Assembly (NCBI GenBank): GCA_051362555.1
Contig: CM120640.1
Span: forward strand, 51,500,788-51,564,787
DNA from: Lingula anatina
Lineage: Eukaryota; Animalia; Brachiopoda
Direction of reading: 5' to 3'
Length of the DNA stretch: 64,000 nt
This document shows, piece by piece, positions 29,201-32,200 of the stretch. The notes beneath the pieces were generated by a model that saw only the letters and a program-made list of their open reading frames with translations, was not told the DNA's origin and did no database searches. Positions within the stretch are counted from its first letter, which is position 1. Every line of letters begins with the position of its first letter. The translations under genes were made by a program, and so were the position numbers.

Positions 29201-32200
29201 GTGCCACTCTCTGAAAAGCTCACAAATCTAACCTTGTATGACCATAGTTACATAAGCTTGCCAGTCGCCTTACTTGATAAAGGCATAAACTTGGCGGTAT
29301 AAGTCCACCCTTCTAATTAGGTAACTTAATGAATTCTCTGACCTTAGCACTTTATTAAAGAGAGGGTGCCACTCTCTGAAAAGCTCACAAATCTAACTTT
29401 GTATGACCATAGTTAAATAAGCTTGCCAGTCGCCTTACTTGTTTAAAACTCAGAAACTAGTGGTAATTAATCTAACGAGCACATGCCGGTAAATTTTAAA
29501 TGACCCAAACATTAAAGATAATCGGTTTCCATATAGTAATAACCCCGTAAGGTAACTCGAGATAACTTATAGAGATAACCCCTTAAGATAACTTAAGATA
29601 ACCTACAGAGATAACCTAAGATAAGCTTTGATCTCATAGAGATAACCCATTAAGATAACCTGAGATAACCTATAGAGATAACCTGAGATAACCTTTGATC
29701 TTATAGAGATAACCCATGAAGATAACCTGGGATAACCTTTGATCTTATAGAGATAACCCATTAAGATAACTTAGAATAACCTATAGAGATAACCTAAGAT
29801 AACATGTTCTCTTATAGAGATAACCTGTTAAGATAACTTAAGATAACCTATAGAGATAACCTAAGATACCGTGTTCTCTTATAGAGATAACCCATTAAGA
29901 TAACTTAAGATAACCTGTAGAGATAACCTAAGATAACATGTTCTCTTATAGAGATAACCTGTTAAGATAACTTAAGATAACCTATAGAGATAACCTGAGA
30001 TAACCTTTGATCTTATGGAGATAACCCATTAAGATAACCTAAGATAACCTATAGAGATAACCTTAGATAACATGTTCTCTTATAGAGATAACCTGTTAAG
30101 ATAACTTAAGATAACCTATAGAGATAACCTAAGATACCGTGTTCTCTTATAGAGATAACCCATTAAGATAACTTAAGATAACCTGTAGAGATAACCTAAG
30201 ATAACCTTTGATCCCATAGAGATGACCCCTTAAGATAACCTGGGATAACCTATAGAGATAACCTAAGATAGCATGTTCTCTTATAGAGATAACCTGTTAA
30301 GATAACTTAAGATAACCTATAGAGATAACCTAAGATAACATGTTCTCTTATAGAGATAACCTGTTAAGATAACTTAAGATAACCTATAGAGATAACCTAA
30401 GATAACATGTTCTCTTATAGAGATAGCCTGTTAAGATAACTTAAGATAACCTATAGAGATAACCTGAGATAACCTTTGATCTCCTAGAGATAACTACAGT
30501 AACATAGACGAACAGGTAAAAGAGAAAAAAAAAATTAACTGAACATCACTTAATTACTTGCACAGGGAGTGCAAAACAACAGAAGCGGGTAATTAGTGGT
30601 GAAAAACGGTTAATAGTAAAAAAAGGGAGGTCATGGGGAAGCTACGCGAAATATCTAAACAGAGAACGTAACTTCGATCTAGCAACTACTACAAGTTGAA
30701 CTTACTAAAATTAGATAAAGTTTCATTAAATTCAGTTCCAAACTACATAGAAAATGGCTAATGACAGGCGGGTTACCCCCGCGGGGGCACCCTCTAAATA
30801 AAATCTAACTCACTGGTACTAAAGGCTGTTGATTCTAATTCTGTCGAAAGGGGAGTCAGCTTTTCGAAGAACCCACGCTTTGGCTCTGCAGCCCTATTTA
30901 TAGACTCCGTTACGTCATGCTCGCGCTGCGGTCAAAGGTCGAAGGTCGCGACCTAACAGCATGGCCGCTCTGCATGGAAGTGTCACTAACTTGTGTATTG
31001 TAGATTTAGCGCCGTATTTCCATTATTTGGGATTTAAATGAAGAATTAACCTATGGGTTTAGTTGGATAAACTCCAGGACATATGTCTCTAAGGAAAAAC
31101 GAAGTCTTAGGTATGATTTAATGTAAAGTTATTGAAGAAAAGTAGATTCCGGTCATAGCAGACGATCGTGCAGCACATGTTTACATTGTTTCTAATGATT
31201 TAAAATAGCAGATTCGTGGCTCCTGTGACCCCCTTTGTTACACTGCCCCCACCCTTTTAAAATTGATTCTCCTGAATCAAGAACAAGTACTGTAGGTAGA
31301 TAAACACTATTTTAATAAAGTGAAAACTATATAACAGATGGCCATGAGTACATTTTAAGTTATTGAATATTGTCCGCAAGAGTACTGTCCCTGTATAGTC
31401 TGTGAGAAGAGATTCATTTTTAGTCTAAAAAAAAAATGATTGCACTTTGTCTAAAAAAAAATGATTTTAATAGTAATAATAATTCATAACCATCATCTTA
31501 GATAAGCATTGCAGTCAACAAAAGAAATTTCTAACGATCATTCATCTTCCATCTGGATAAATTGTTTCCTTTTCAGTGAACCTTGTCACCCTGCCATACA
31601 GGGGGGCAATGCTTGTTTTTGACTGATCTACACGTGCAGCAGGTGACTTCCTGGCAGGCATTGGTGTACTCTCACCATCCTCCACGTCCACGTCCTCGTC
31701 CGATGACCAACCTCCTGTTGGGGGCTCTGGCGTCATGTTCAGCCTGATACCCTTCCCACCTGTTGTCGGGCGTGGAGCTTTCCTTGGGGGCTCTTCTACT
31801 GGTGTTTCCTCAAGGAGGGAGGCTTCCTCCTCCCTCCCCACCATTACCTGCACTGGCTGGTGATGGGCCTGTTGGTGTTTCATCAATTCGCTTTCTTTGG
31901 TGTAAGACCTGTCGCAATTCTTCTCCATGCATTTATACGTTTCGTGCATGGCCGCTTCATGCCTCCTGCGGTTCGATCTTGAGGAAAAATGTACACTGCA
32001 GTACTTGCATTTCTGACCTGGCATCACTAAAATAAAGGTGGATTTATTATTCATTTCATTTTATGCGTTCATAAGATTTTTTTTTTTTTTTCGTGACCTT
32101 CAGCACAGATAAGGGGGTAGGTTATTCAGTGATTAGTAAAAAAAAAAAAAAAAAAAAAAAAAAAAAAAAATTCTGCCAAATTCCTTAATAAATTTGATTA

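What the first reader, a model, noticed from the sequence alone, without database searches (positions are those of the whole stretch)
29540..30495. About 70 GATA-factor consensus sites arrayed in each LTR
Seen: 67-bp units with five (A/G)GATAA each, about 14 units per LTR, built from 10-14-bp sub-repeats. Unit order differs between the two LTRs, so the array is still turning over. Known: AGATAA is the canonical WGATAR site. Inference: this could be a very dense enhancer or sink for host GATA factors, or the target of ORF3. It sits twice in a WDR54 intron, ~8 kb from the shared WDR54/nAChR promoter region.
Basis: partly seen in the sequence, partly recalled or inferred. Interest (0 to 1): 0.7.

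Follow-up and report, generated by a model that had tools for sequence, protein, structure and literature searches.

The report
GATA-site minisatellite in giant retrotransposon LTR
A young jumping gene in a lamp-shell (Lingula-like) genome carries about 65 same-strand copies of the DNA word AGATAAC in each of its unusually long end repeats, and these words are better preserved than the letters between them, so the array likely serves as the element's own GATA-factor enhancer, although no binding or effect on neighbouring genes is shown.

Summary
The array is real: 64 and 67 WGATAR sites (62 and 65 exact AGATAA), all on one strand, in 67-bp units of 13+10+13+10+21 bp. It lies in each 3.4-kb LTR of a young, internally deleted, low-copy Ty3/Gypsy-type element (27835-37889, minus strand; LTRs 0.6% apart outside arrays) in a host intron; the neighbouring nAChR is 96% identical to Lingula anatina's. 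New details: the array lies downstream of the LTR's TATA box (predicted R/U5, not U3); 5 units per LTR carry the TCF motif CCTTTGATC; a sixth, inverted core-like site is imperfect in 29 of 29 blocks. Against the bold reading: element RNA is scarce (57, 28 and 1 reads), the host intron splices normally, a GATA sink is numerically negligible, nothing ties ORF3 to the array. Best reading: the element's own homotypic enhancer, an extreme version of the ERV9/LTR12 and ZAM/gypsy arrays. The scan has noted repeat arrays inside long LTRs on other DNA.

The parts
27835..37889 (-). Internally deleted Ty3/Gypsy-type LTR retrotransposon, TG...CA ends, in sense orientation in a host (WDR54-like) intron
34544..37889 (-). 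5' LTR, 3346 bp
27835..31242 (-). 3' LTR, 3408 bp; 12 substitutions in 1941 non-array bases against the 5' LTR
29537..30494 (+). 67-bp AGATAAC array in the 3' LTR (the finding): 64 WGATAR, 5 CCTTTGATC; reads GUUAUCU in element-sense RNA
36152..37140 (+). 67-bp AGATAAC array in the 5' LTR: 67 WGATAR, 5 CCTTTGATC
37530..37635 (-). Predicted U3 core promoter: the only sense TATAAA of the LTR (37549-37544; 30902-30897 in the 3' LTR), TGACGT at 37564, direct AGGTCA-like repeats; block shared with otherwise unlike contigs
   Evidence: X1 record 2, X7 record 11
34671..34676 (-). Distal AATAAA, 130 bp from the LTR end (27967-27962 in the 3' LTR); two more at 35971 and 35806; all three lie downstream of the array
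28097..28612 (.). Second LTR array, 95-bp unit, CpG-rich (o/e 1.38), 5.4 copies here and 4.4 at 34806-35226; one GGTAAC per unit
29033..29458 (.). Three diverged ~150-165-bp repeats in the LTR holding the two proximal AATAAA
34525..34542 (-). Primer-binding site, 18 nt beginning TGG, one base after the 5' LTR (match to tRNA-Leu recalled, not tested)
31243..31258 (-). Polypurine tract before the 3' LTR
33398..34405 (-). gag with CCHC knuckle; 25 homologues at 37-50% identity
32238..33461 (-). pol remnant: aspartic protease, an in-frame stop at 32925-32927, start of the RT region, then an internal deletion near 32384-32391; no RT, RNase H or integrase family hit
31542..32015 (-). ORF3, 157 aa, two C2H2 fingers plus a low-complexity acidic tail; no specific relatives
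27831..27834 (.). Target-site duplication ATAT (could be 6 bp), repeated at 37890-37893
38210..38373 (-). Host exon upstream of the insertion, spliced to the exon beginning at 27145

Best explanation
The array is a minisatellite of AGATAAC words inside the LTR of a young Ty3/Gypsy-type element, downstream of the LTR's TATA box, and it likely works as the element's own homotypic enhancer for host GATA factors, with interspersed TCF motifs possibly adding Wnt input. Shown: the anatomy, the position, the excess conservation of cores, unit gain and loss between the LTRs. Inferred: a 10-13-bp seed was multiplied by slippage or template switching into a six-slot 67-bp unit and then into about 14 units; selection among element copies removes variants that spread through cores; GATA456/123-type proteins bind and raise element transcription in a restricted cell type or stage (endomesoderm would fit the GATA+TCF pair), which is why the sampled RNA shows it almost silent. 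Any effect on neighbouring host genes would be an incidental property of a polymorphic insertion.
For: Core columns carry 1.9% minor letters against 11.7% in spacer columns over 27 units; 2 of 67 mask shifts do as well (one is the mask itself); random-column p 0.001; after merging linked columns, variants in 4 or more units: 0 in cores, 10 in spacers, while rarer variants are 8 against 4 (Fisher p 0.002). So cores mutate but their variants do not spread. The conserved word matches WGATAR (PMC5220053, passages). CCTTTGATC, the TOPFLASH TCF motif (PMC3210366, passages), occurs 5 times per array. Precedents: ERV9/LTR12 tandem repeats bound by GATA-2 (PMC11853044, passages); tandem 5'-UTR enhancers and insulators of ZAM and gypsy, also downstream of the start site (PMC8872304, passages); GATAd motifs associated with env-less (predicted germline) Gypsy LTRs in flies (PMC13486581, passages). 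Brachiopod GATA4/5/6 is expressed in gastrula endo- and mesoderm (PMC4404124, passages). The array RNA folds no better than shuffles (z -0.33 and -1.42) and has no long ORF.
Against: The conservation test weakens with the threshold (Fisher p 0.07 at 3 or more units, 0.05 at 5 or more; 0.18 for the 3' LTR alone); units share ancestry, both LTRs come from one copy, and out-of-register conversion could homogenise cores without selection (the same spacer variants recur in different sub-repeat classes). One core-like site per unit, the inverted one, is imperfect in 29 of 29 blocks, though a GATA enhancer should tolerate it. The TCF motif is one variant multiplied, in 11 of 27 units at most, so possibly chance. 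RNA over U3 plus the internal region is 57, 28 and 1 reads in 12.4, 9.5 and 11.1 million records, on both strands, with no pile of starts; LTR depth is 2 or less in two more runs. AGATAAC triplets occur in many unrelated microbial and viral contigs (119 and 110 stretches). No binding, chromatin or reporter data.
Confidence: 0.5

Rival explanations
1. Neutral passenger minisatellite: a short seed that happened to contain AGATAAC was amplified by slippage in a tolerant part of a long LTR, and recombination between sub-repeats keeps the cores alike.
For: The same LTR has three other unrelated repeat sets; unit number changes in two arrays while unique LTR DNA differs by 0.6%; unrelated contigs hold AGATAAC repeats; RNA is scarce; one-strand orientation follows from tandem duplication alone.
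Against: Widespread variants avoid the a-priori WGATAR columns (0 of 10) while rare ones do not (8 of 12); carrying 1 kb extra between the predicted start site and the primer site should be costly (inference).
Confidence: 0.27
2. Strand-specific role in the RNA or in reverse transcription: the array is in the predicted R/U5 leader, and the repeated GUUAUCU word is a protein-binding or strand-transfer signal; inverted copies were lost because they would pair with the direct ones.
For: Position downstream of the only sense TATA and upstream of all three AATAAA; the inverted core-like site is 1, 2 or 3 letters off in 16, 11 and 2 of 29 blocks, never exact, and the two common block types together cover all 7 letters (chance 0.006 for a random 7-mer); no TTATC on the + strand of either LTR.
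Against: No fold beyond shuffles, no Rfam hit, start and poly(A) sites unmapped, no candidate RNA-binding protein.
Confidence: 0.1
3. Insulator, silencer or self-regulatory operator: a host non-GATA protein or the element's own C2H2 protein (ORF3) binds the cores, as Su(Hw) does in gypsy.
For: Position matches gypsy/ZAM arrays with insulator or silencer activity; ORF3 has two C2H2 fingers, and finger 1 carries Asn and Arg at helix positions 3 and 6, which by the recalled recognition code reads GA(N); the element is nearly silent.
Against: Finger 2 does not fit the flanking triplet by the same recalled code, the linker is 2 residues, 141 relatives are generic C2H2 proteins, and some copies seem to lack ORF3 (depth 286 against 425 for gag; a joint skipping 31309-32079).
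Confidence: 0.1
4. Host-level function: a GATA sink, or a co-opted enhancer for WDR54 or the nAChR gene.
For: About 130 sites lie within 3-16 kb of two host gene 5' regions; LTR12 acts on globin genes at a distance.
Against: Young insertion (0.6% LTR divergence, against about 7 differences in 120-130 bases between host haplotypes), apparently absent from one haplotype in X1; the family is about 10 LTRs per haploid genome by rough depth ratio; sites are under 0.1% of the expected genomic total.
Confidence: 0.03

Closest known systems
ERV9/LTR12 tandem E-repeat enhancer (human; NF-Y/GATA-2/MZF1)
   Same: Variable-number tandem repeats inside an LTR, each with a GATA site; 14 repeats in the globin-locus copy; a second variable array further down the LTR (PMC11853044, passages).
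   Different: LTR12 repeats are about 41 bp, in U3 upstream of the start site, with about one GATA site each and NF-Y as the key factor. Here there are five cores per 67-bp unit, about 65 in all, no CCAAT in the array, downstream of the TATA box, in an invertebrate Gypsy-type element; binding is untested.
Tandem 5'-UTR enhancer/insulator arrays of Drosophila gypsy, ZAM, Tirant, Idefix
   Same: Polymorphic tandem arrays of host-factor sites downstream of the start site in Gypsy-type elements; 19 of 49 fly 5'-UTRs have them (PMC8872304, passages).
   Different: Those lie after the 5' LTR and are single; this one is inside the LTR and so duplicated; the motif and density differ.
Rice Retrosat2 (3.2-kb LTR, predicted 244-bp U3 and 2-kb R)
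   Same: Very long LTR with a short predicted U3, several AATAAA and an extra ORF (PMC3485330, passages and abstract start).
   Different: Plant element; its tandem repeats are seven short CTTTTT motifs, not a 1-kb array of a transcription-factor word.
Zebrafish BHIKHARI
   Same: Model for the proposed behaviour: an LTR element expressed only in mesendoderm and primordial germ cells (PMC9341512, passages).
   Different: ERV1-type; no such expression is shown for this element, and no GATA array is described in the passages I saw.

Membership tests
Ty3/Gypsy LTR retrotransposon | Two direct LTRs with TG...CA ends, target-site duplication, PBS and PPT | tested here: met
Ty3/Gypsy LTR retrotransposon | Gag with CCHC knuckle and aspartic protease | tested here: met
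   Pfam PF00098, PF13975, PF13650
Ty3/Gypsy LTR retrotransposon | Domain order PR-RT-RH-IN and RT phylogeny | tested here: inconclusive
   No RT, RH or IN hit; the copy is deleted near 32384-32391. The stretch after the protease resembles the Gypsy RT start by recall only; clade not assigned.
LTR tandem-repeat enhancer (ERV9/LTR12 type) | Variable-number tandem repeats with recurring consensus factor sites inside the LTR | tested here: met
LTR tandem-repeat enhancer (ERV9/LTR12 type) | Located in U3, upstream of the transcription start | tested here: inconclusive
   By motif position it is downstream of the only sense TATA, so probably not U3; RNA reads are too few to map the start.
LTR tandem-repeat enhancer (ERV9/LTR12 type) | Sites conserved above spacer background | tested here: met
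   1.9% against 11.7%; p 0.002-0.07 by threshold, units not independent
LTR tandem-repeat enhancer (ERV9/LTR12 type) | Factor binding, open chromatin and reporter activity | not testable with these tools
   No ATAC or ChIP run among the 21 listed
gypsy/ZAM-type insulator array | Enhancer-blocking activity through a bound host protein | not testable with these tools
   needs a reporter assay
Structured RNA repeat (hairpin array) | Fold more stable than shuffles or a match to an RNA family | tested here: not met
   z -0.33 and -1.42; 0 Rfam matches at E<=1

The most novel reading that the evidence does not exclude
A lophotrochozoan Gypsy lineage has built a natural GATA+TCF 'super-reporter': about 65 GATA sites with interleaved TCF motifs in a 2-3-kb R/U5, held to one strand by selection against the inverted site, that times transposition to endomesoderm before the germ line is set aside and turns each new insertion into a portable endomesoderm enhancer. 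Elements with such LTRs would have been missed by surveys capped at 1.5-kb LTRs (PMC6238403, passages).
Probability: 0.17. Interest if true: 0.7.

Novelty: new variant of a known kind. Interest (0 to 1): 0.4.

Why it matters
Tandem factor-site arrays in LTRs are known, but this one is several times denser than the LTR12 example, sits on the far side of the promoter, and comes with an internal record of which mutations spread and which do not. If it binds GATA it is a ready-made endomesoderm reporter for a phylum with few such tools, and a clean natural experiment (filled against empty allele) on whether a dense site array affects neighbouring genes. If it does not, it is an ordinary LTR minisatellite.

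Tried and rejected
No whole genome is held for this window, so other copies and related families could not be aligned; this is the main gap. No RNA holder was listed among indexed runs (no evidence either way). The arrays themselves were not covered by the read-laying runs, so transcription of the array is inferred from position only. Start-site mapping: no pile of starts in 5 RNA runs. In X14 element-sense depth was 1.5, 5.3 and 1.3 in the three bins from 30500 to 30931 and 0 from 30932 to 31795, which fits the TATA; X11 had both strands there, X12 had nothing downstream of the TATA and X15 had single reads on both sides of it, so I call it inconclusive. Strandedness was shown for X12 and X15 and assumed for X11 and X14 of the same studies. 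ORF3 searches: none at E<=0.001, generic C2H2 only. Coding or structured-RNA readings rejected. Helical phasing: cores are phased at 11.17 bp (coherence 0.86) and not at 10.5 bp (0.04), which merely reflects 67/6. An RFX X-box reading was considered by eye (recalled consensus) and dropped: spacing does not fit. No tRNA gene in the window.

Full report
1. Observation. The array is present twice, at 29537-30494 and 36152-37140. It holds 62 and 65 exact AGATAA, 64 and 67 WGATAR, all on the + strand; the other 61.9 kb of the window hold 193 WGATAR on both strands. The 67-bp unit is five core-led blocks of 13, 10, 13, 10 and 21 bp. Of 13 and 14 full units, 10 are collinear between the two copies with 0-1 differences; the middle differs by local gains and losses.

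2. Context. Self-BLAST and end inspection give an LTR element at 27835-37889 on the minus strand: LTRs of 3408 and 3346 bp with TG...CA ends, an ATAT duplication, an 18-nt primer site and a polypurine tract. Inside are gag with a CCHC knuckle, an aspartic protease, an in-frame stop, the start of the RT region, a deletion near 32384-32391, and a 157-aa ORF with two C2H2 fingers. Outside the arrays the LTRs differ at 12 of 1941 bases. The nAChR exon at 53338-53934 is 96% identical to a Lingula anatina protein, next best 69%, so the host is a lingulid brachiopod. Contig depths in run X1 are about 90-100 for host DNA, 943 for the LTR, 425 for gag and 286 for ORF3; the tool warns that depth is not copy number, but the ratios suggest roughly 10 LTRs and 4 internal regions per haploid genome. 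One X1 contig (455 letters, depth 58) follows the host flank to 37899 for 222 letters and then leaves the stretch, which fits an empty allele; its other letters were not shown, and 38 further pieces were not listed. The flanking host exons (38210 and 27145) are joined in 53 and 6 reads: an intron of about 11.1 kb, about 1.0 kb without the element.

3. Position in the LTR. Read in element sense, the LTR has a single TATAAA 341 bases in, preceded by TGACGT and direct AGGTCA-like repeats; the array begins about 400 bases after it, and all three AATAAA lie beyond the array. Contigs otherwise unlike this LTR match just 37530-37635 in two DNA runs, as expected of a conserved core promoter. So the array is predicted to be in R/U5, in the transcribed leader, not in U3. 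RNA could not confirm this: 57, 28 and 1 reads in three runs over 30500-34800, both strands, no pile of starts, and depth 2 or less over U3 in two more runs, where the host exon had depth 48 and 13. The tissues of these runs are unknown to me.

4. Is the core constrained? Over 27 full units (16 distinct), the 30 AGATAA columns carry 1.9% minor letters and the 37 other columns 11.7%. Two of 67 shifts of the mask do as well; random columns give p 0.001. With linked columns merged, variants in 4 or more units number 0 in cores and 10 in spacers, rarer variants 8 and 4 (Fisher p 0.002); at thresholds 3 and 5 p is 0.07 and 0.05; the 3' LTR alone gives 0.18. The 44-bp units and array heads were left out. 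Cores thus mutate but the mutations do not spread. Caveats: the units share ancestry, both arrays descend from one copy, and conversion between out-of-register sub-repeats could give a similar pattern. I rate this as moderate evidence.

5. First, the 21-bp block comes in two types; one contains CCTTTGATC (5 exact per LTR, CTTTGAT 6), the TCF/LEF motif of TOPFLASH (PMC3210366, passages). Second, positions 10-16 of that block are 1, 2 or 3 letters from the reverse complement of the core in 16, 11 and 2 of 29 blocks, never exact, and the two types together cover all 7 letters, which a random 7-mer does with probability 0.006. This looks like an inverted sixth site lost in two ways (inference). 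It is a mild point against a plain GATA enhancer, since palindromic and tandem GATA pairs are both functional (PMC5220053, passages), and a mild point for pressure against fold-back in the RNA or cDNA. The array RNA itself folds no better than shuffles, matches no Rfam family and has no long frame.

6. Mechanism. I commit to an element-level enhancer (0.5): slippage multiplied a GATA-bearing seed; copies with intact cores are transcribed better in some GATA-expressing cells and so propagate. GATA4/5/6 marks gastrula endo- and mesoderm in another brachiopod (PMC4404124, passages), and zebrafish BHIKHARI shows that LTR elements can be confined to mesendoderm and germ cells (PMC9341512, passages); that this applies here is inference. 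Rivals: neutral minisatellite (0.27), RNA-level or reverse-transcription role (0.1), insulator or ORF3 operator (0.1), host-level sink or co-opted enhancer (0.03). ORF3 has only generic C2H2 relatives.

7. Comparison and novelty. Closest are the ERV9/LTR12 tandem enhancer with GATA-2 sites (PMC11853044, passages), the tandem 5'-UTR arrays of gypsy and ZAM (PMC8872304, passages), GATAd motifs in fly Gypsy LTRs (PMC13486581, passages) and the 3.2-kb LTR of rice Retrosat2 (PMC3485330, passages). Tandem repeats arising from LTR/UTR DNA are known (PMC3648361, abstract and outline). Searches listed no paper whose title or abstract start describes this family or a GATA array in a lophotrochozoan LTR; I saw listings only, Repbase was not searchable, and I opened no supplementary files, where element libraries could list it. 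A mollusc survey capped LTRs at 1500 bp (PMC6238403, passages); an annelid survey allowed 7000 bp (PMC8220671, passages). Earlier notes of this scan report repeat arrays inside long LTRs in other genomes (unchecked by me), none similar in sequence. Verdict: a real, extreme variant of a known kind, function unproven; interest 0.4.

Noticed in passing
window 37890-37896: In run X7, three contigs follow the LTR end with ATAT or ATATATA and then other DNA: other insertions also start with ATAT, suggesting a target-site preference.
   Followed up: partly
window 37530-37635: Contigs in X1 and X7 match only this TATA/TGACGT/direct-repeat block (8-9 differences in about 100 bases) and are unlike the LTR on both sides: probably related LTR families sharing the core promoter.
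   Followed up: partly
window 31243-34543: X1 contigs show several joints that skip 0.7-3.2 kb of the internal region and loose ends at the deletion point, so longer copies and other deleted forms or related families exist.
   Followed up: partly
window 28097-28612 and 34806-35226: 95-bp CpG-rich array (o/e 1.38 against 0.49-0.66 in flanks) with one GGTAAC per unit, a word one letter from the GATAAC core; a + strand TATAAA at 34747 points into it.
   Followed up: partly
window 31542-32015: Extra ORF with two C2H2 fingers after a 33-nt T run (sense), between pol and the PPT; no specific relatives among 141 hits; one paper search for such ORFs listed 1 paper, with no C2H2 mention.
   Followed up: partly
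window 23822-25543: 143/288-bp satellite, 12 copies, rich in GACCTT/AAGGTC words, in the next host intron.
   Followed up: no
window 50866-51171: Degenerate 32/60-bp repeat with 5 GATAA in an nAChR intron; unrelated to the LTR array by self-BLAST.
   Followed up: no
window 40257-40361 and 42567-42671: 105-bp inverted repeat pair (87%) bounding 2.4 kb between the WDR54-like and nAChR genes, possibly a DNA transposon.
   Followed up: no
window 2197-2604 and 15828-16700: Exons with a chitin-binding peritrophin-A domain and a Laminin G3 domain.
   Followed up: no
window 38091-38335: Host haplotypes in X1 differ by about 7 letters in 120-130 bases, exon included: very high heterozygosity.
   Followed up: no
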